Shown here: positions 51,328 to 61,036 of the stretch, piece after piece
Layout of the letters: every line of letters begins with the position of its first letter
How positions within the stretch are numbered: the first letter of the stretch is position 1
Origin: a virus
Taxonomy: Duplodnaviria; Caudoviricetes
Strand: one strand, 5' to 3'
IMG/VR virus record: IMGVR_UViG_3300031861_000001
Location: 11,971 to 75,970 of that record
Length of the DNA stretch: 64,000 bases
Made by a program: the position numbers and the translations under genes
The notes under the pieces: model-generated
Told to the model about the DNA's origin: nothing
Seen by the model: only the letters and a program-made list of their open reading frames with translations
Database searches by the model: none

Positions 51328-51335
51328 TATTTATA
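51328..51335 (-). promoter_or_regulatory. T4-type late promoter TATAAATA (for gp19)
   Basis: Exact consensus overlapping the gp18 stop codon. Confidence 0.8.
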
Positions 51336-53575: not shown

Positions 53576-53583
53576 TATTTATA
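53576..53583 (-). promoter_or_regulatory. T4-type late promoter TATAAATA (for gp18)
   Basis: Exact consensus; RBS AGGAG before the ATG. Confidence 0.85.
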
Positions 53584-53595
53584 AACAAACGGGGT

Positions 53596-55248
53596 TCAGA
53601 AAAAAACATTGTGACCTGTATCTTCTAAAATTCTATCAGTTCTTTCTACTTGCCATCTATTTCCTTCATCATCTACAATTTCTTCTTCCTCTAATCCGTC
53701 ATCTATAATACCAAACGGTAAATAGCTTTCTTCAATTTCTTTCATTTTCTCTGAATACATCTTTTCACGTAAATCAACATTTGTTAATTCTTTATAATAT
53801 TCTTGGTTAGTTAACCACGCAAAGATGACTAACGTGATTGCTAAATCATCATGATGTCCTTCCTCAGCTTCATATGAATCTTTTTTGGCTGAAAAAGAAG
53901 TAAGTTCATATATTACATCATAATCTGTTATAATTAACTTATCTTCTTCAATCAAGTTTTTTAATGTAGCACAACCTAGACGTTTAACTTGCTTAGTAGT
54001 TCTTACTCCCCATTGTGAATTCTTACCAAAACCACCACCCAACTGTTGTCCACCTCTACCTTTCCAAGTCATCATCATCATATTTTCATATTCTAAATCT
54101 TGGTGTAAGGTAACTGCTACTTGTTCTCCTATATCATTTACTTCAACTAATACATATGCCTCATTATAATGTTTAGCTACCTTATAAATTACGTTAGGAT
54201 ATAATAACGGTGATATAGTATCACATCTATATTTTGCTACAAGTTTATAAGGAACTTCAGTCGAATCTATAACTGTGAATGCAGAATAATCTAATCCTTG
54301 TCCTCTGGCTGTATCAACAACTAAAGTATATGAATGTTTTTCTATTGGATTTTCGAATATATCTATAAAATCTTGTGAATGTATTGGTGTCTTAAAAGGC
54401 ATGGATCTTAATTTAGATCCTGATATAAGTGTTTGTGTACTACCAACAAATTCTGTTTCGAATTCTTGTGAAAATTGTCTTTCACTAGTATTTCGAATGG
54501 TCTCTTCTTTCCATTTGGCATCTCTGCCTGGAATTTCAGACCAGTGAACTTCAATAGGTAAATAATTACTTCTTTTTTCTTCTGAATCTACCCACATCTT
54601 ATAGAATTGATTTAATCCTAAGGGTGTAGATACAATAAAGACTTTAGTAGTTTGTCCAGAAGAAATAGTTGGATATACTGAAGTAAAAAATTCTTCTGCC
54701 AATTCCTTTGGAACGTGAGCGAACTCATCTAAGAAAATTATATTAAAAGATGATCCCCGGATTGCAGATGATGATGTAGCTGCAGCTAATATTTTTGAAC
54801 CATTCTCTAATTCTATATTACCTTTATTCCATGCTAATATGCCTTGTTGTAACCACATAGGCAAATTTTCATAAGATAGTTTTAATCTATCTAATAATTC
54901 TCTAGCAAGAGCACCTTTATTAGCCAGAATACATACATGTGTATTTTCATTAAAAAGTATGTAATGTAAAAAGAAAGCAATAATAGTGGTAGATTTGCCT
55001 GATTGTCGAGGCATCTTACAAATCACAAATCTATTATCGTGAAATGTTTGTACCATCTTCGTTTGAAAAGGATAGAGATTGAAATCTACTAATCCTTTAT
55101 CAACATGAATAATTTTTACATATTTTTTAATAAAATAGACTGGATCGTCTTGACATTTTATATATTCTGCTAATTGTTCTTCGGAAAATTCTACCGGAAC
55201 ATTAGCAGATTTTAATTTGGGATTACCAAGATAATGTGTACTAGGCAT
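53596..55248 (-). CDS. gp17: gp17 large terminase
   Basis: YLGNPKLK, PRQSGKST, IFLDEFAH, STPLG, DTARGQGLDYS, HDDLAI. Confidence 0.98.
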   Translation of the reverse strand: MPSTHYLGNPKLKSANVPVEFSEEQLAEYIKCQDDPVYFIKKYVKIIHVDKGLVDFNLYPFQTKMVQTFHDNRFVICKMPRQSGKSTTIIAFFLHYILFNENTHVCILANKGALARELLDRLKLSYENLPMWLQQGILAWNKGNIELENGSKILAAATSSSAIRGSSFNIIFLDEFAHVPKELAEEFFTSVYPTISSGQTTKVFIVSTPLGLNQFYKMWVDSEEKRSNYLPIEVHWSEIPGRDAKWKEETIRNTSERQFSQEFETEFVGSTQTLISGSKLRSMPFKTPIHSQDFIDIFENPIEKHSYTLVVDTARGQGLDYSAFTVIDSTEVPYKLVAKYRCDTISPLLYPNVIYKVAKHYNEAYVLVEVNDIGEQVAVTLHQDLEYENMMMMTWKGRGGQQLGGGFGKNSQWGVRTTKQVKRLGCATLKNLIEEDKLIITDYDVIYELTSFSAKKDSYEAEEGHHDDLAITLVIFAWLTNQEYYKELTNVDLREKMYSEKMKEIEESYLPFGIIDDGLEEEEIVDDEGNRWQVERTDRILEDTGHNVFF

Positions 55249-55992: not shown

Positions 55993-56322
55993 CTAATTAC
56001 TTATTAACTGTTGAATAACTGCAGCAACTATAGTACCTATAATAGCAACAGCAGTAGTTATTATTATTCTATTTTGTTTAAAATGTTGTTCTATTGATAA
56101 AGCTTTCATTTCATCCATACTATCTTTCATTTTGGAAATTCTTTCATGAATAATAACATTACTTTTATCAATAGTATCTTGTAATTGTTGATACTTCTCT
56201 TCCAAACGCTGATACCTCTCCGCGCATAAGTCTACATGTGCCTCTAAGTTTTCTTTTTCTAACATGGCCGGTTTCTTATGTCTCGTTCTATTTTTAACTG
56301 TTTTAAGTAACTGTGCTACCAT
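55993..56322 (-). CDS. Coiled-coil protein with C-terminal transmembrane helix
   Basis: LEAHVDLCAERY coiled coil; IIITTAVAIIGTIVAAVI. Confidence 0.6.
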   Translation of the reverse strand: MVAQLLKTVKNRTRHKKPAMLEKENLEAHVDLCAERYQRLEEKYQQLQDTIDKSNVIIHERISKMKDSMDEMKALSIEQHFKQNRIIITTAVAIIGTIVAAVIQQLISN

Positions 56323-56680
56323 TAGTTATTTGAGCTCCTTCTTTATGTTCCGGATCTTCTTTATCTTTAAACCAGTAGTCCGTTGCTTTACTGAGCACCG
56401 CCACATACGCTCCGGTCATAATATTTATTAGATCGCGAGATGCCGTCGGCAAGTCTTCCATAAAGAGTAGCCATATTAAAAATAAAAAAGTTAGTACCAC
56501 AATTAGGGATAATGTAAATCTTGCCCACCAATTCATTTTCTTCCGGCGTTCTGTTCCTTCATATTGTAATGCTTTCACTGGATCACTTTCCCATAATTTT
56601 TCTTCAGATTGCTGAATCATTTCATTACTAGTATTTATTTTATTGTCACCTTGACGATCTTTTCTACTTAATATTGTCAT
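56303..56680 (-). CDS. Two-TM holin-like membrane protein
   Basis: FTLSLIVVLTFLFLIWLLF and LINIMTGAYVAVL..DYWF. Confidence 0.55.
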   Translation of the reverse strand: MTILSRKDRQGDNKINTSNEMIQQSEEKLWESDPVKALQYEGTERRKKMNWWARFTLSLIVVLTFLFLIWLLFMEDLPTASRDLINIMTGAYVAVLSKATDYWFKDKEDPEHKEGAQITNGSTVT

Positions 56681-56701: not shown

Positions 56702-56709
56702 TATTTATA
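56702..56709 (-). promoter_or_regulatory. T4-type late promoter TATAAATA
   Basis: Exact consensus upstream of the ORF starting at 56680. Confidence 0.8.
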
Positions 56710-56728: not shown

Positions 56729-57358
56729 TTATCTCAACAATGCAGGTATGGGTATATTATCTACTATGAAAGTTCCGACCTGGCCTTGAAGTAAGAACAC
56801 TATTATAGCAGCGAACATTCCCCAAAGAAAACTCATATAAGACCATTTGAGAAACCTATACTTATTAAGTGCAAGAACTTTTCCTTGTCCGTAAATATCT
56901 CCTGCCATGGCATCATATACTCTATCATCAGTCATCAATGATTTTGCATAATCTTTTTTGTATTCATCTATCGGCAAATGTGCGAAATGTCCAAAAAACA
57001 AAGGATTGAATAAAGGAGATTTCCTATCTATTTCCTTAGAACCTTTCTTTTTAGGATAATCCGTATTTGGAATAATTGCAAAAATCGCAAATAATAAAGA
57101 GAAAAAACTACCAACGGCAAATGATAATAGAGGCCATTTCATCGTTTCATTATCTAAATTTGCAATAGTAATTGAAAATACAATTGATGCAACGGTAATC
57201 ATTATATTAGCTTTTTGATCTGCCATCAATACTAATCTCATTTGATTACCATGATTAACACGTAGAATATTATCTACAGCAGTACGATTTTCTGGTATTA
57301 GCTCAAAATAATTTATATGAGATTTAGAATTTTTTGAATATTGAGTGCTGTGTGACAT
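56729..57358 (-). CDS. Pycsar effector-like transmembrane protein (PycTM/DUF5706)
   Basis: MADQKANIMI, paired TM helices ending AIIPN, LFFGHFA, M..DIY...KVL...KYRFLKWSY followed by a TM helix. Confidence 0.75.
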   Translation of the reverse strand: MSHSTQYSKNSKSHINYFELIPENRTAVDNILRVNHGNQMRLVLMADQKANIMITVASIVFSITIANLDNETMKWPLLSFAVGSFFSLLFAIFAIIPNTDYPKKKGSKEIDRKSPLFNPLFFGHFAHLPIDEYKKDYAKSLMTDDRVYDAMAGDIYGQGKVLALNKYRFLKWSYMSFLWGMFAAIIVFLLQGQVGTFIVDNIPIPALLR

Positions 57359-57360
57359 GA

Positions 57361-58227
57361 TTAAAACTTATATTTTGTCTTGGACCCATTAATCAAATAA
57401 TCAACGGCTTTTAATGTGGACACATATTTTGCTATGGCATGAGTTAATCCATCGGTTTTTGAGATTAAACCATTATCATTATCTGGGCCCCAATCTAAAT
57501 CCTGACTATCTATAAAAAGTCCGGTATGACGATAAGGCCAAGGAGGAGTAAAAGGGATAGGATCGCTACGGCGAACCACGCGCCAATGAGTGGGTTGGCT
57601 ATCAAGAACTTGAGCAGAAACTTTTGGTGATCCGTAAGAGAAAACTTGAACATTCTTACCTCTCTTATGAAGCCACATTCCTATTATTTGTGCAACGGCT
57701 CCACCTAAACTGTGACCTGTAACGTGTACAGTATGTTCAAGGGGATATGTAAGTGTCTGTCCTTGAATAGTATTTCTTCCTGTCGTAGTTGAAGTATCTA
57801 TAATTTGCATTATATTTACCGCAACATCTCTAAATCCTTTATGAAGTTTGATTCCTGTACGTGCATCATCTACTAATCTTACATCAATATCAGATAGTAC
57901 ATTTGCATCATTTGCCGTACCCCTAATAACAATTATTGATATTCCACTTTCTTGTTTTACTTCAAACGCAACTTCATCTTTTTGATCACCGCCACTATCG
58001 TAAATTGCTTTACAATATTCAGCATGTTCAATGAGAGATTTTAATGAAACTGGTAAATTTGATCTATTCCCACTACCTAAATCATTATTTTTATCAGCTA
58101 CGTTTTTTGCACAACTATTAAATAGTAGAAGAAGACTTATTATTAGCGTGAATTTCTTTATGTTTATTAAATGACGTCGCCCCAAGGATTGCCCCGAATG
58201 AAAGATGAAACATTGCACCGCTTTCAA
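57361..58227 (-). CDS. Class 3 lipase, probable lipoprotein (true start likely downstream of the track start)
   Basis: IIVIRGT, LHKGF, VTGHSLGGAVA (GxSxG), SYGSPKV, DPIPFTP, H; lipobox-like LLLFNSC. Confidence 0.85.
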   Translation of the reverse strand: MKAVQCFIFHSGQSLGRRHLINIKKFTLIISLLLLFNSCAKNVADKNNDLGSGNRSNLPVSLKSLIEHAEYCKAIYDSGGDQKDEVAFEVKQESGISIIVIRGTANDANVLSDIDVRLVDDARTGIKLHKGFRDVAVNIMQIIDTSTTTGRNTIQGQTLTYPLEHTVHVTGHSLGGAVAQIIGMWLHKRGKNVQVFSYGSPKVSAQVLDSQPTHWRVVRRSDPIPFTPPWPYRHTGLFIDSQDLDWGPDNDNGLISKTDGLTHAIAKYVSTLKAVDYLINGSKTKYKF

Positions 58228-58410
58228 GTGTCAAGGGAGCCCATCGTGTTACACCTTCTTTTAAACAATCATGTGTATCACAATATCCTGCCATCAACAA
58301 ATTCCATATTAAAGGTGCAACAAAAAAATCAATTAAACAAATAAACAAATAAACAAGTGCTGCCCAATCTCGCCAGTACTCTTTTATTGTAGCGTTAACT
58401 TGCAATTGCA
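58118..58410 (-). CDS. Holin-like protein (GTA 3-TM holin-like family; probable start MQLQVN)
   Basis: WRDWAALVYLFICLIDFFVAP...WAPLTL..GAMFHLSFGAILG. Confidence 0.6.
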
Positions 58411-58619
58411 TCTTCCAATGTTGCAATAAGTTTAGCTTTATTGTGTCGTCTATCTAATTCAACACCAACTGTTCTGCCGTATGTTTCCAATTGTTTTTTG
58501 GTCATACTTTTTAAATTTACCTTTTTTTCTGATATGTGTTTTTCTTCAGGTTTCTGAGAATTATCACCTATACCTTCATTATTAAATATTGACTTAATTA
58601 TATTTCCAATCCAAGACAT
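58395..58619 (-). CDS. Small protein with Rho-N/HeH-like helical motif
   Basis: LKSMTKKQLETYGRTVGVELDRRHNKAKLI. Confidence 0.6.
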   Translation of the reverse strand: MSWIGNIIKSIFNNEGIGDNSQKPEEKHISEKKVNLKSMTKKQLETYGRTVGVELDRRHNKAKLIATLEDAIAS

Positions 58620-58651: not shown

Positions 58652-59785
58652 CTATTTTAATGGAGGCGCATATAATAATCCACCTTCTGTATACAATTTA
58701 TTTAGTCCTCGCGATAACGCAAGAGGAGTATTTTTACCTACATTTCGTTCATAAATTTCTGCATAATTACCAACTTGTTTGATAACTTCATATGCCCATT
58801 CTGATTTTAACCCTAACTTAGCTCCAAGATGAGGATGATCAATTCCATTTATTTCGCCCATAAATCTTTGGATCATTGGATCTATATGATTTTTAAAATC
58901 ATCAATATTTTTTGAAGTAATACCATACTCTTCTGCTACGAATAAAACGTAAATTGTCCATCGAATAATATCAGACCATTGCTGGTCTCCATATTTTGTT
59001 ACTGGACCAAGAGGTTCTTTTGAAATAATTTCCGGAAGAATTATATGTTGTTCCGGGTGTTTAAAACTTAATCTATTAGAAGCTAATGCAGAACGATCTG
59101 TACCATACATATCACATTTACGATCTATGTAATAATCTTTAGGCTTATCACCTACTGGTACTTCAACAGGAATATAATGAAGAAAATGTTTTTTAAAAAA
59201 ATCTTTAATATTTTTTGCAGCTGTCCCATGTGTACTATAACATATTCTTGCACCAACCATTTGTTTTGCTGAAGATACCCCAAGAGTTTTTCGAACAATA
59301 AACCCTTGACCATCATAATAAGTGGTAGGTAAAAATTCTAATTTTTTAAGAACATTTCTAGTATAGGTATATGTAGTATTAGCAGATAATATATCTATAG
59401 TACCATCAATTAAATAACTAAATCTAGTTTTACCATCCACCACTTCAAACTCGATCGATTCTTTATTAAGAAATACTGCTGTTGCAACAGCTCGACAAAT
59501 ATCAATATCAAAACCTACAAACTCTAATCGACCTGACTCCGGATTCCAAATCTCTTCACCAAAACCAGGAAACGCATCTTTGCCACCACATATTAAGTGA
59601 CCACGTGCTACTACACGTTTAAATGTTGAACCATAAGTGGGATTGTATTCAGGTAGGATAATTTCAACAGTATCTTTTTGTGGATTGCGTTCTTCATTTG
59701 GATTGCCTTCGGCTGGAGAACCTACTACGGTCAGCCAAAAAACCCACACTAAAGCAACTATAGTTTTTCCAATAGGTATCCACAT
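58652..59785 (-). CDS. aapJ: General L-amino-acid ABC transporter substrate-binding protein (AapJ/BztA family)
   Basis: RGHLICG, PGFG, GFDIDICRAVATAV, YYDGQGF, ISKEPLGP, GDQQWSDIIRW, QVGNYAEIYERNVG, RGLNKLY..GGLLYAPP. Confidence 0.93.
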   Translation of the reverse strand: MWIPIGKTIVALVWVFWLTVVGSPAEGNPNEERNPQKDTVEIILPEYNPTYGSTFKRVVARGHLICGGKDAFPGFGEEIWNPESGRLEFVGFDIDICRAVATAVFLNKESIEFEVVDGKTRFSYLIDGTIDILSANTTYTYTRNVLKKLEFLPTTYYDGQGFIVRKTLGVSSAKQMVGARICYSTHGTAAKNIKDFFKKHFLHYIPVEVPVGDKPKDYYIDRKCDMYGTDRSALASNRLSFKHPEQHIILPEIISKEPLGPVTKYGDQQWSDIIRWTIYVLFVAEEYGITSKNIDDFKNHIDPMIQRFMGEINGIDHPHLGAKLGLKSEWAYEVIKQVGNYAEIYERNVGKNTPLALSRGLNKLYTEGGLLYAPPLK

Positions 59786-60222
59786 TACTGCAAAGCTCGA
59801 TAAATTGTTAGAAGTTCATCGTCTGCTATTGGAGTAGGCATAGTATAAAATCGTTGATGACCAACCAACATATATGCTTTAATATCAGAAAAACTAGGAT
59901 ACTTGGTAAGTAAATTATGAAGTAAATAATCAGGACTTAAATGACATGAAGCACATTGATTATCTTTAGCAAACACTCTGGTAGCCTTTTTAAATCTTTC
60001 TGATTGTACCAATACAGAATTAAGATCTTTTTCCATCCATGTTACTCTTTCATCTATATCTGGAATTATCAAAAAAATTAAATAAATCAATAATCCAATA
60101 ATAACATATATCCATATTTTACTAGAAACTACTAAATCTTTAGTTTCTATTTCAATTTCTTTTACCGGCTCAAATTTTCCTTCTGTTTGTCTTTCTTCGT
60201 CTTTGTGTTTTTGTGCCATCAA
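59785..60222 (-). CDS. Membrane-anchored c-type cytochrome-like protein
   Basis: Single TM helix, then a CASCH (CxxCH) motif and downstream Met/His candidates. Confidence 0.6.
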   Translation of the reverse strand: MMAQKHKDEERQTEGKFEPVKEIEIETKDLVVSSKIWIYVIIGLLIYLIFLIIPDIDERVTWMEKDLNSVLVQSERFKKATRVFAKDNQCASCHLSPDYLLHNLLTKYPSFSDIKAYMLVGHQRFYTMPTPIADDELLTIYRALQ

Positions 60223-60575
60223 TCAATCCTTTCTTTTGATACGCCTTTTAACTTTTTAGTGATTTCTGCTGTAAACCACTTTAATACAATTGGAATACTT
60301 ATATTAGAAGTTAGTCCAAATAAATATCCTATTGGAAATTTATATGTATTATATGAAGCTAATTGAGGAACGTTTTCAAATACCAGCCATATTAAAATAT
60401 AACCGGTAACGGACATACCCATATTAATAAAAAGATCAAATAATATTAAAATAATATTTTTTTGATACTTGTCTTTATTATCGTGTCTATAATTGAATAA
60501 AAATATGAACAACGAAGAGAATAATATAATTCCAAACATTGTCAAATTGACTGCACTAAAAAGTGAATCCATCAA
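60219..60575 (-). CDS. Three-TM membrane protein (holin-like)
   Basis: Three hydrophobic segments and a basic C-terminus. Confidence 0.55.
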   Translation of the reverse strand: MMDSLFSAVNLTMFGIILFSSLFIFLFNYRHDNKDKYQKNIILILFDLFINMGMSVTGYILIWLVFENVPQLASYNTYKFPIGYLFGLTSNISIPIVLKWFTAEITKKLKGVSKERID

Positions 60576-61036
60576 ATCTCCTTGGATTTCTGTTTCAGTA
60601 ACTTCTGAAGATCAGCTGTGCTTCCTACAAATAGTGCATTTGTGACATTTTGAGGAGATCCTAATACTTCATCCGACATACTTTTTTTTGTTTTATGTAA
60701 TCCCATTAATTCTTTACTGGCATTTGTTAACTTGTCAATAAACTGACCTACTACTTCATATGCTCTAGGATGTTCTGTTTCCCTAGCAACTTCAAGTAAG
60801 CCCTCCATGGCGTCAGACCCTCTCTCTATTATACTGTATATATTTTCACGTGCATACTGAAAATCAGTATCTGTATCATCATGTGTTTTATCAGGTGTCT
60901 TATATTTAACAGGTTGATTTTGAGGTACCGGTGCGATCTTAAATACTTCATCTAACTTTACATCTACTGATTTTGGATCAACCTGTTTATCAATCACTTT
61001 ATAATTTTCCATTTTATCTTTACTCATTTGTACCAC
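60572..61036 (-). CDS. gp16: gp16 small terminase
   Basis: DFQYARENIY, EHPRAYEV, NALFVGSTADLQKLL. Confidence 0.93.
   Translation of the reverse strand: MVQMSKDKMENYKVIDKQVDPKSVDVKLDEVFKIAPVPQNQPVKYKTPDKTHDDTDTDFQYARENIYSIIERGSDAMEGLLEVARETEHPRAYEVVGQFIDKLTNASKELMGLHKTKKSMSDEVLGSPQNVTNALFVGSTADLQKLLKQKSKEI

What the first reader, a model, noticed from the sequence alone, without database searches (positions are those of the whole stretch)
56729..57358. Orphan Pycsar-type effector (PycTM/DUF5706-like) in a lytic phage's late region
Seen: the motif pattern of the PycTM effector, with no nucleotide cyclase gene anywhere in this window. It is translationally coupled behind a lipase and flanked by holin-like genes. 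Known: Pycsar pairs a cCMP/cUMP cyclase with PycTM, which kills infected cells at the membrane. Inference: the phage may use it as a cyclic-pyrimidine sponge or dominant-negative inhibitor, as a weapon against co-infecting phages, or as a repurposed lysis component.
Basis: partly seen in the sequence, partly recalled or inferred. Interest (0 to 1): 0.76.

Follow-up and report, generated by a model that had tools for sequence, protein, structure and literature searches.

The report
Cyclase-less PycTM-family protein in phage cassette
An uncultured marine T4-like phage carries an intact, strongly conserved membrane protein of the family named after the bacterial Pycsar suicide effector, but with no signal-making cyclase; it is the last gene of a four-gene cell-envelope cassette, so it is more likely a channel the phage runs itself than a decoy against host immunity.

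Summary
ORF 56729-57358 (-) encodes a 209-aa, three-helix membrane protein. It matches Pfam PycTM (PF18967) at 75 bits against a cutoff of 27, and it keeps every family-invariant residue. No class III/PycC cyclase was found on the 76-kb contig, on 10 larger related contigs, or in about 105 related viral loci. All of these contigs are fragments (12-62% complete).

The lipase coupling is real here (2-nt spacer) but is not conserved across the clade. The conserved partners are three upstream genes: a 118-aa membrane protein, a membrane-anchored CxxCH protein and an AapJ-type amino-acid-binding protein. Together with the PycTM-like gene they form a tightly coupled, apparently late-transcribed cassette. 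It occurs in at least 157 viral contigs, is under strong purifying selection (dN/dS about 0.1) and sits on varying genomic backgrounds.

The phage proteins form one clade, not nested in the cyclase-linked cellular branch. Most close cellular relatives also lack a nearby cyclase, and the domain is also found fused to HD or EF-hand domains.

Function is unproven. My best reading (about 0.45) is a phage-timed inner-membrane channel. The decoy or sponge reading is weakly supported.

This scan has already met the same clade on other phage DNA (e1-5729016, e1-5772127, e1-5830372) and read it similarly. I found no paper describing it.

The parts
56729..57358 (-). PycTM-family (PF18967; 'pJV1-SpdB3 3TM') membrane protein, 209 aa. 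TM helices at about 50-68, 78-96 and 172-199, with a cytosolic insert at 97-171.
   Evidence: Pfam and PADLOC matches; hydropathy; AF2 model at pLDDT 90.2; family-invariant residues kept; dN/dS 0.107.
58652..59785 (-). AapJ-type periplasmic amino-acid-binding protein, 377 aa, with an N-terminal signal or anchor. Third gene of the conserved cassette.
   Evidence: PF00497; TIGR01096 at E = 3.5e-33; PDB 4z9n at E = 3e-78; present in 47 of 50 loci; directly abuts PycTM (-4 to +13 nt) in 41 of 46 loci.
59785..60222 (-). 145-aa protein with one TM helix (36-54) and a C-terminal domain carrying an invariant CxxCH motif. Putative membrane-anchored c-type cytochrome. Second gene of the cassette.
   Evidence: CxxCH invariant in 37 unique sequences. 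Atlas feature similarity to c-type cytochromes is 0.90, a lead only. The AF2 model is poor. The stop overlaps the SBP start by 4 nt in 40 of 45 loci.
60219..60575 (-). 118-aa multi-pass membrane protein, first gene of the cassette. It overlaps the small-terminase stop by 4 nt in the window.
   Evidence: Hydropathy; 41-44 loci; dN/dS 0.084; no Pfam or PHROG match. The atlas holin-like hint at 0.86-0.89 is a lead only.
57361..58227 (-). Class 3 lipase with a lipoprotein-like N-terminus. It is inserted here between the SBP and PycTM genes. The true start is probably internal to the listed ORF.
   Evidence: PF01764 at E = 6e-19 and phrog_21992. Position varies among relatives.
58118..58426 (-). 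102-aa two-helix membrane ORF that always lies directly upstream of, and overlapping, the lipase. Together they form a mobile two-gene unit.
   Evidence: tblastn hits in 16 loci, always abutting the lipase. No PHROG match.
58395..58619 (-). 74-aa ORF between the SBP and the 2TM-lipase pair. Found only in the closest relative.
   Evidence: Weak PHROG match at the C-terminus.
56702..56709 (-). T4-type late-promoter-like motif TATAAATA, 19 nt downstream of the PycTM stop. It marks the 3' boundary of the cassette's transcription unit.
   Evidence: All 9 window copies are on the coding strand. The same motif follows PycTM in many relatives, and it precedes TM118 where gp16 is not the upstream neighbour.
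60572..61036 (-). Small terminase subunit (gp16-type), the upstream flank of the cassette.
   Evidence: phrog_445 at E = 2.4e-40.
53596..55248 (-). Large terminase subunit (gp17-type), the downstream flank of the island.
   Evidence: PHROG terminase large subunit; 58% identity to cyanomyovirus gp17.
55993..56680 (-). Two small single-helix membrane ORFs (125 aa and 109 aa) downstream of PycTM. They belong to the variable part of the island.
   Evidence: Hydropathy. Conserved only in L002. Only weak PHROG or Pfam hits.

Best explanation
Shown: the gene encodes an intact member of the PF18967 family, to which the Pycsar and Pucsar membrane effectors belong. It has three membrane helices and a conserved cytosolic insert, and it is under strong purifying selection. 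In a large clade of uncultured marine T4-like phages it is the last gene of a four-gene cassette: a small multi-pass membrane protein, a membrane-anchored CxxCH protein, a periplasmic AapJ-type binding protein, and the PycTM-like protein. The cassette genes are tightly packed. It lies among late structural genes, is bracketed by T4-type late-promoter motifs, and keeps its composition while its flanks change. No cyclase accompanies it.

Inferred: like its characterised relatives, which are hexameric inner-membrane channel formers that are toxic when active, it assembles into an oligomeric channel in the host inner membrane. Here the phage makes it on its own late schedule. It would permeabilise or depolarise the membrane, in a holin-like, lysis-timing or ion-channel role. 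It may work together with the other cassette proteins, and it does not depend on a dedicated cyclic-pyrimidine signal. Whether it is still gated by a nucleotide, for example a host cNMP, is open.
For: Identity: Pfam 75 bits against a cutoff of 27; PADLOC PycTM models; full-length alignment with all invariant residues D47, K49, P97 and K166; 3TM topology and a confident AF2 model that fits the published EcPucTM protomer description (bioRxiv 10.64898/2026.08.12.744502).

Selection: dN/dS of 0.107. The cytosolic parts are as conserved as the TM helices.

Cassette: present in 41-47 of 50 loci, at higher identity than gp15, gp16 and gp18. Gene junctions are -4 to +13 nt. It is intact in 16 of 16 large loci despite different flanks.

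Late timing: position between verified TerS and TerL. All 9 TATAAATA motifs are on the coding strand. The motif precedes TM118 where gp16 is absent and follows PycTM.

No cyclase.

The family works without cyclases elsewhere: 68 of 76 cellular loci have none within 6 kb; HD and EF-hand fusions exist; SpdB3 is toxic in E. coli and self-interacts on a plasmid with no cyclase (PMC4447253).

A cell-wall hydrolase lies in the same island in one sublineage.
Against: No experiment or structure shows pore formation for this protein.

No endolysin is adjacent in the window. The hydrolase is absent from G000, G011 and G003.

The cassette is restricted to one phage clade, so it cannot be the general lysis system of marine T4-like phages.

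The roles of the SBP and the CxxCH protein do not follow from a simple holin model.

Late expression is inferred from position and motifs, not measured.

Conserved cytosolic motifs could mean that ligand gating is retained, which would leave the signal unexplained.
Confidence: 0.45

Rival explanations
1. Envelope transport or redox complex. The PycTM-like protein is the membrane subunit of a non-lethal machine built with the periplasmic amino-acid-binding protein, the c-type-cytochrome-like protein and the 118-aa membrane protein. This would be an auxiliary metabolic or sensing module that alters uptake or respiration of the infected cell, not a killing pore.
For: The four genes are always together, tightly coupled and similarly constrained. 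In cellular aap operons the SBP is followed by membrane permeases, and here a membrane protein takes that position (established knowledge of aapJQMP). The closest cellular relatives L059-L061 sit in an operon with K+-channel-type proteins. Many cellular homologues are housekeeping-linked.
Against: There is no precedent for PF18967 proteins acting as transporters. Characterised members, and SpdB3, are toxic or defence-linked. No ATPase or permease homologue is in the cassette. In the window a lipase pair is inserted between the SBP and PycTM genes without apparent harm, so strict adjacency is not needed.
Confidence: 0.2
2. Phage-borne exclusion or abortive device. The protein remains a cyclic-nucleotide-gated killer. 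It is triggered by cNMP made by a host cyclase or induced by a second, competing phage, and so removes co-infected cells or blocks superinfection.
For: The family core motifs in the cytosolic region are retained. A cyclase-linked cellular clade lies in the same 47-member group of the tree. PucsarTM protects strongly against T4-like phages.
Against: No cyclase lies within 8-10 kb in about 105 viral loci, nor on 11 larger contigs. The charged residues specific to the cyclase-linked clade are not kept. Exclusion genes are usually early or constitutive, whereas this gene sits in a late unit. The lineage looks strictly lytic, so there is no prophage stage in which to protect a host.
Confidence: 0.15
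3. Anti-Pycsar decoy. The protein soaks up cyclic pyrimidines, or co-assembles with the host's PycTM and poisons its pore.
For: It has the same family and architecture as the effector. Phage sponges against nucleotide-signalling defences are well known, and Pycsar is reported to be antagonised by phage sponges (PMC13712596).
Against: Its position suggests late expression, too late to stop an abortive response. The closest cellular relatives are at most 48% identical and come from taxa that are unlikely hosts, which makes mixed hexamers unlikely. The TM helices are highly conserved (TM1 0.94), which a soluble-ligand sink would not need. The constant partnership with three envelope proteins is unexplained by this idea. 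No membrane-protein sponge is known (own knowledge).
Confidence: 0.1
4. An ordinary complete Pycsar-like module whose cyclase lies in the unsampled part of the phage genome.
For: All contigs are fragments, 12-62% complete.
Against: Known systems keep the cyclase and effector adjacent. G000 extends about 69 kb downstream of the gene and G011 about 72 kb upstream, together about 80% of a roughly 180-kb composite genome if the two are collinear, and neither has a cyclase.
Confidence: 0.05

Closest known systems
PycTM / PucTM effectors of Pycsar and Pucsar (PF18967; 'pJV1-SpdB3 family 3TM'; EcPucTM cryo-EM hexamer, bioRxiv 10.64898/2026.08.12.744502)
   Same: Same Pfam family, well above threshold. 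Same length class. Three TM helices with a helical cytosolic insert plus a small beta element. Family-invariant residues are kept.
   Different: No adjacent or detectable cyclase. Encoded by a lytic-type phage in a late structural region. Fixed partnership with three envelope proteins. It forms its own clade outside the cyclase-linked branch and lacks that branch's specific charged residues.
SpdB3 of Streptomyces conjugative plasmids (pSVH1/pJV1; PMC4447253)
   Same: According to the 2026 preprint's naming, a member of the same 3TM family, carried by a mobile element and working without a cyclase. It is toxic when expressed in E. coli and self-interacting, and it acts within a multi-protein envelope complex.
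   Different: It functions in intramycelial plasmid spreading alongside the TraB DNA translocase in Gram-positive mycelia. I did not align SpdB3 with the phage protein here.
Cyclase-less cellular PF18967 proteins (Lysobacterales, Thermoanaerobaculia and others) and HD- or EF-hand-fused forms
   Same: 32-48% identity over the full length. Most have no cyclase within 6 kb. They show that the module works with other inputs.
   Different: They are chromosomal, with housekeeping or ion-channel neighbours, and none has the TM118, CxxCH and SBP partners.
Phage holins and pinholins
   Same: Small oligomerising inner-membrane proteins made late by the phage. A roughly 15-Å hexameric channel, as reported for EcPucTM, would resemble a pinholin-scale lesion.
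   Different: No sequence or profile relation. No adjacent endolysin or spanin in the window. A large conserved cytosolic domain is atypical for holins.

Membership tests
PF18967 / pJV1-SpdB3 3TM family (PycTM, PucTM) | Profile match above the curated threshold over the whole domain | tested here: met
   75.3 bits against a cutoff of 27.2, profile positions 7-107 of 107. PADLOC PycTM at 56.7 bits over positions 22-152 of 160.
PF18967 / pJV1-SpdB3 3TM family (PycTM, PucTM) | Three TM helices with a cytosolic, mostly helical insert between TM2 and TM3 | tested here: met
   Hydropathy gives 50-68, 78-96 and 172-199. AF2 model at pLDDT 90.2 has helices 26-66, 74-95 and 144-201 plus a short beta element. 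This matches the description of EcPucTM.
PF18967 / pJV1-SpdB3 3TM family (PycTM, PucTM) | Family-invariant residues (ADxKA..., FFGH, K-Y-R...SY) | tested here: met
   D47, K49, P97 and K166 are invariant across 80 sequences and are kept. 37 of 69 columns conserved in the cyclase-linked clade are kept.
PF18967 / pJV1-SpdB3 3TM family (PycTM, PucTM) | Hexameric channel assembly | not testable with these tools
   No multimer prediction is available. The PucTM coordinates are not in the local PDB copy.
Pycsar / Pucsar defence system (as a system) | Adjacent PycC- or PucC-type class III cyclase | tested here: not met
   None at E <= 1 on G000 or on 10 related contigs. None in about 105 viral loci totalling about 836 kb. 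Caveat: no complete genome was available.
Pycsar / Pucsar defence system (as a system) | Activation of the effector by cCMP, cUMP or cGMP | not testable with these tools
   The ligand site is unresolved even in the published structure.
Pycsar / Pucsar defence system (as a system) | Protection of a bacterial host against phage (abortive infection) | not testable with these tools
   This needs an experiment. The gene is phage-borne in a lytic-type T4-like genome.
Phage holin | Match to a holin family profile | tested here: not met
   No holin family in Pfam or PHROGs for this ORF.
Phage holin | Genetic linkage to an endolysin | tested here: inconclusive
   A SleB-type hydrolase lies 2.7 kb downstream in L031/G001 and in G002. 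It is absent from G000, G011 and G003. No T4-type lysozyme was found.
Phage anti-defence sponge | Small soluble early protein that binds the signalling nucleotide | tested here: not met
   This is an integral membrane protein in a unit that appears to be late. Binding itself could not be tested.

The most novel reading that the evidence does not exclude
The four cassette proteins form one phage-built envelope machine. In it, a periplasmic amino-acid-binding protein and a membrane-anchored c-type cytochrome report the nutrient or redox state of the infected cell to a PycTM-type hexameric pore. The phage would then time membrane permeabilisation, and so lysis, by the host's physiological state rather than by a cyclic-nucleotide signal. 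This would be a defence effector rewired into a sensor-gated lysis clock.
Probability: 0.1. Interest if true: 0.8.

Novelty: new variant of a known kind. Interest (0 to 1): 0.5.

Why it matters
PycTM-type proteins are known as the killing arm of bacterial cyclic-nucleotide immunity. This case shows the same module fixed, abundant and strongly selected in a large clade of ocean phages. It appears in nearly 2,000 90%-identity protein clusters, mostly from marine metagenomes, and in at least 157 viral contigs. It has no cyclase and always travels with three envelope proteins.

If the phage uses it as its own membrane channel, that would be a clear case of an immune effector family also serving the virus. 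It could also point to the still unidentified lysis or membrane-control genes of marine T4-like phages.

It is also a caution for annotation: a PF18967 hit alone does not indicate a Pycsar system.

Tried and rejected
1. **Cyclase searches:** PF00211, PADLOC PDLC00734 and PDLC02367, and a local class III HMM. Nothing in any phage-type sequence.

2. **Deposited phages:** tblastn of PycTM, TM145 and TM118 against 50,697 deposited phage genomes gave no match. The SBP gave only distant hits.

3. **Fold searches of the PycTM model:** Foldseek against PDB and BFVD gave nothing at E <= 1e-3. VIA-align wide gave only generic helical bundles at Z <= 10.5, below the level that is meaningful for helical proteins. 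A PDB sequence-profile search gave nothing. The PucTM entry cited in the preprint is not in the local copies.

4. **CxxCH protein:** the AF2 model was too poor (pLDDT 61) to use for fold search. The PDB sequence search gave only E = 0.46 to cytochrome c550.

5. **TM118 as a holin:** only an atlas feature hint of 0.86-0.89, with no Pfam or PHROG support, so I did not adopt it.

6. **XoxJ/XoxG-like pairing of the SBP and cytochrome:** considered and dropped, because the SBP is AapJ/LAO-type by NCBIfam and PDB.

7. **Lipase as the functional partner:** rejected, because its position varies and it travels with its own 2TM gene.

8. **Bacterial or archaeal origin of MAG hits L052-L055:** rejected. 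They come from four different phyla, carry the phage cassette, and one is identical to a viral contig.

9. **Tool and alignment limits:**
So contexts of metagenome representatives, and the 110-kb contig carrying P0105, could not be examined.
- The first 80-sequence alignment was too diverse for the genome scan.
- The careful tree search did not finish, so the quick IQ-TREE result was used.

Full report
**Observation.** The window encodes a 209-aa ORF at 56729-57358 on the minus strand, exactly as reported.
- It matches Pfam PF18967 (PycTM) at E = 6.2e-21, 75.3 bits against a gathering score of 27.2, covering profile positions 7-107 of 107.
- It matches three PADLOC PycTM models, the best at E = 9e-16 and nearly full length, and more weakly the CBASS '2TM effector' models.
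- It has no PHROG or NCBIfam family.
- Hydropathy gives three membrane helices (about 50-68, 78-96 and 172-199) around a 75-residue soluble insert.
- An AlphaFold2 model built on 80 homologues is confident (pLDDT 90.2). It shows long helices at 26-66, 74-95 and 144-201, plus a small beta element and short helices in the insert.
- This fits the published description of the EcPucTM protomer: three TM helices, a mainly helical cytosolic region and a beta appendage, assembling into a hexamer with a channel of about 15 Å (bioRxiv 10.64898/2026.08.12.744502).
- In alignments with cellular relatives the phage protein aligns end to end and keeps every invariant position (D47, K49, P97, K166 and others).

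So the family assignment is sound.

**Genome.** The window is the last 64 kb of a 75,970-bp IMG/VR viral contig that CheckV rates at 42% complete.
- 103 of 107 major ORFs are on the minus strand.
- The flanks of the island were verified: head-tail adaptor, head closure protein, tail sheath stabiliser (gp15-type), small terminase, then the island, then large terminase and tail sheath.
- TerL is about 58% identical to cyanomyovirus gp17 and has no closer cultured relative.

This is an uncultured marine T4-like myovirus, and its host is unknown.

**Cyclase.**
- No class III or PycC-type cyclase was found on the contig (PF00211 and PADLOC PDLC00734 and PDLC02367, all at E <= 1).
- None was found on ten larger contigs of the same clade.
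- A local class III cyclase HMM, run on six-frame translations, found none in about 105 related viral loci totalling about 836 kb. The same HMM readily found cyclases in cellular loci.
- All viral contigs are fragments (12-62% complete), so absence from a whole genome is not proven.
- G000 extends about 69 kb downstream of the gene, and G011 extends about 72 kb upstream. If the two phages are collinear, roughly 80% of a 175-180-kb genome has been seen without a cyclase.
- Known Pycsar and Pucsar systems keep the cyclase and effector adjacent.

**The real context.** The lipase coupling is real in this window: the lipase stop TAA, two bases, then the ATG. It is not the conserved feature.

- *Core cassette.* Across 50 related viral loci the constant neighbours are three upstream genes:
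  - a 118-aa multi-pass membrane protein (60219-60575);
  - a 145-aa single-helix protein whose C-terminal domain carries an invariant CxxCH motif (59785-60222);
  - a 377-aa AapJ-type periplasmic amino-acid-binding protein (58652-59785; TIGR01096 at E = 3.5e-33, PDB 4z9n at E = 3e-78).
- *Conservation.* These genes and the PycTM-like gene are 57-88% identical among loci, whereas gp15, gp16 and gp18 are only 40-55% identical.
- *Gene junctions.* The junctions are tight:
  - CxxCH protein to SBP overlaps by 4 nt in 40 of 45 loci;
  - SBP to PycTM is -4 to +13 nt in 41 of 46;
  - TM118 to the CxxCH protein is -20 to +8 nt in 44 of 44.
- *Selection.* Median dN/dS is 0.08-0.16 for all four genes, and 0.107 for PycTM.
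- *Flanks.* The cassette is intact in 16 of 16 large loci, but its flanks vary. They are TerS and TerL in many loci, a MotA-like membrane trio directly after PycTM in others, and still other genes elsewhere.
- *Lipase unit.* The lipase travels with a previously unlisted two-helix ORF (58118-426, conserved in 16 loci). This pair sits after PycTM, before the cassette, or, as here, between the SBP and PycTM genes.
- *Downstream ORFs.* The small membrane ORFs downstream of PycTM are conserved only in the nearest relative and match no holin family.

**Timing.**
- All nine TATAAATA motifs (the T4 late-promoter consensus, from established knowledge) in the window lie on the coding strand, upstream of genes such as gp18 and gp19. 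One lies 19 nt after the PycTM stop.
- In relatives where TerS is not the upstream neighbour, the motif lies about 80 nt before TM118. In many loci it follows PycTM or overlaps its 3' end.
- I infer that the cassette is a late transcription unit ending with the PycTM-like gene. This was not measured.

**Family breadth.**
- The protein has 1,970 relatives among 90%-identity clusters. The top 120 are all at least 80% identical, so the gene is very abundant in marine metagenomes.
- It has 1,268 relatives among 50%-identity representatives. Typical cellular ones are 30-45% identical over residues 23-191.
- Some carry N-terminal HD or EF-hand domains.
- Of 76 cellular loci from species-representative genomes, 8 have a class III cyclase within 6 kb, some of them divergently adjacent. 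These cyclases match PADLOC PycC models at about 72 bits. The other 68 do not.
- The neighbours of the other 68 include PrmC, KatG, LysR regulators, oxidoreductases and, for the closest gammaproteobacterial relatives, K+-channel-type proteins.
- In a quick maximum-likelihood tree of 103 sequences, the phage proteins form one clade (SH-aLRT 99) on a long stem. They sit in an unresolved 47-member group that also holds the cyclase-linked clade. The phage clade is not nested in that clade.
- Of 69 columns conserved in the cyclase-linked clade, the phage clade keeps 37. These are the family-wide core. It does not keep that clade's specific charged residues.
- Four 'MAG' contigs assigned to Chloroflexota, Nitrososphaerales and two flavobacterial lineages carry the phage version. 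They are mis-binned phage DNA, and one is identical to a viral contig.
- The 2026 preprint names the family after SpdB3 of Streptomyces plasmids. That protein is toxic in E. coli, self-interacts and acts in a multi-protein envelope complex without a cyclase (PMC4447253).

**Interpretation.** Three things are firm: the family identity, the purifying selection, and the cassette context without a cyclase. The mechanism is inferred.
- *Phage-timed channel (0.45).* The best-supported reading is that the phage makes an oligomeric inner-membrane channel late in infection for its own purposes: permeabilisation, depolarisation or lysis timing. A SleB-type cell-wall hydrolase lies in the same island in one sublineage, but not on this contig, so a classical holin-endolysin pairing is not established.
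- *Non-lethal envelope complex with the SBP and the cytochrome-like protein (0.2).* This is the main rival, because of the constant partnership.
- *Retained nucleotide-gated exclusion role (0.15).* This cannot be excluded.
- *Decoy or sponge (0.1).* This lacks positive support and fits poorly with a late, membrane-embedded, partner-bound protein.
- *Hidden cyclase (0.05).* This is unlikely.

**Novelty.** I found no paper on a phage-encoded member of this family. 'DUF5706' returned nothing, and the 'PycTM' papers concern bacterial systems only. No cassette gene has a close homologue in about 50,000 deposited phage genomes. This scan has already reported the same clade on other phage contigs with similar conclusions (e1-5729016, e1-5772127, e1-5830372). 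I reproduced the key points independently here. I class it as a new variant of a known kind: a known effector family in a new, cyclase-free viral setting.

**Limits.**
- No complete genome of the clade was available.
- No multimer modelling could be run.
- The PucTM structure is not in the local PDB copies.
- The CxxCH protein's fold could not be confirmed.

Noticed in passing
window 58118-58426 (-) with 57361-58227 (-): A 102-aa two-helix membrane ORF overlaps the listed start of the lipase gene and was missed by simple ORF picking. It is conserved in 16 loci, always directly upstream of the lipase. The pair moves as a unit to three different positions around the cassette. It could be a membrane-protein plus lipoprotein-lipase module acting on the outer membrane.
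   Followed up: partly
window 59785-60222 (-): A phage-encoded, membrane-anchored protein with an invariant CxxCH haem-binding motif, present in at least 37 unique sequences. It has no Pfam family and no homologue in deposited phages. It is a possible virus-encoded c-type cytochrome.
   Followed up: partly
L152 8810-10488; also L041, L045, L159, L166: The three-gene MotA/ExbB-like membrane trio lies about 66 kb away on this contig (G000 1060-2736). In several relatives it sits immediately after, or within a few kb of, the PycTM cassette. This suggests a shared 'envelope gene' hotspot.
   Followed up: no
L052, L053, L054, L055 (genome contigs): Contigs binned into MAGs of Chloroflexota, Nitrososphaerales and two flavobacterial lineages carry the phage cassette. 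L053 is identical to viral contig L037 across the gene. These are likely mis-binned phage DNA in public MAGs.
   Followed up: partly
L104 3338-5422 (-), L106 3448-5433 (-), L061 10115-12169 (-): Cellular PycTM homologues of one clade sit next to class III cyclases of 660-695 aa. The N-terminal regions of these cyclases weakly match defence-protein models (PD-T4-6, SduA/DUF4263, PDC-M60B). They may be Pycsar-like systems with an added sensor domain.
   Followed up: no
L059 2982-7195 (+): In the closest gammaproteobacterial relatives the PycTM-like gene follows a Castor/Pollux-RCK protein and an Ion_trans K+-channel-type protein in one apparent operon, with a cyclase about 5 kb away.
   Followed up: no
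L031 10760-15249 (+) (contig G001): In one sublineage the gap between PycTM and TerL holds a DUF3293/SAM-lyase-like gene, a Zeta-toxin-type kinase with an NT5C-like C-terminus, a SleB-type cell-wall hydrolase (PF07486, E = 6e-23) and two unknown genes.
   Followed up: partly
proteins P0237, P0246, P0264 (HD-PycTM); P0160, P0157 (EF-hand-PycTM): The PF18967 domain occurs fused to N-terminal HD phosphohydrolase or EF-hand calcium-binding domains. This shows that the membrane module is coupled to inputs other than a cyclase.
   Followed up: partly
window, 9 sites (for example 53576-53583, 51328-51335, 56702-56709): All nine exact TATAAATA motifs lie on the coding strand, although the total count is not above chance (13.8 expected). 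This is consistent with T4-type late promoters.
   Followed up: partly
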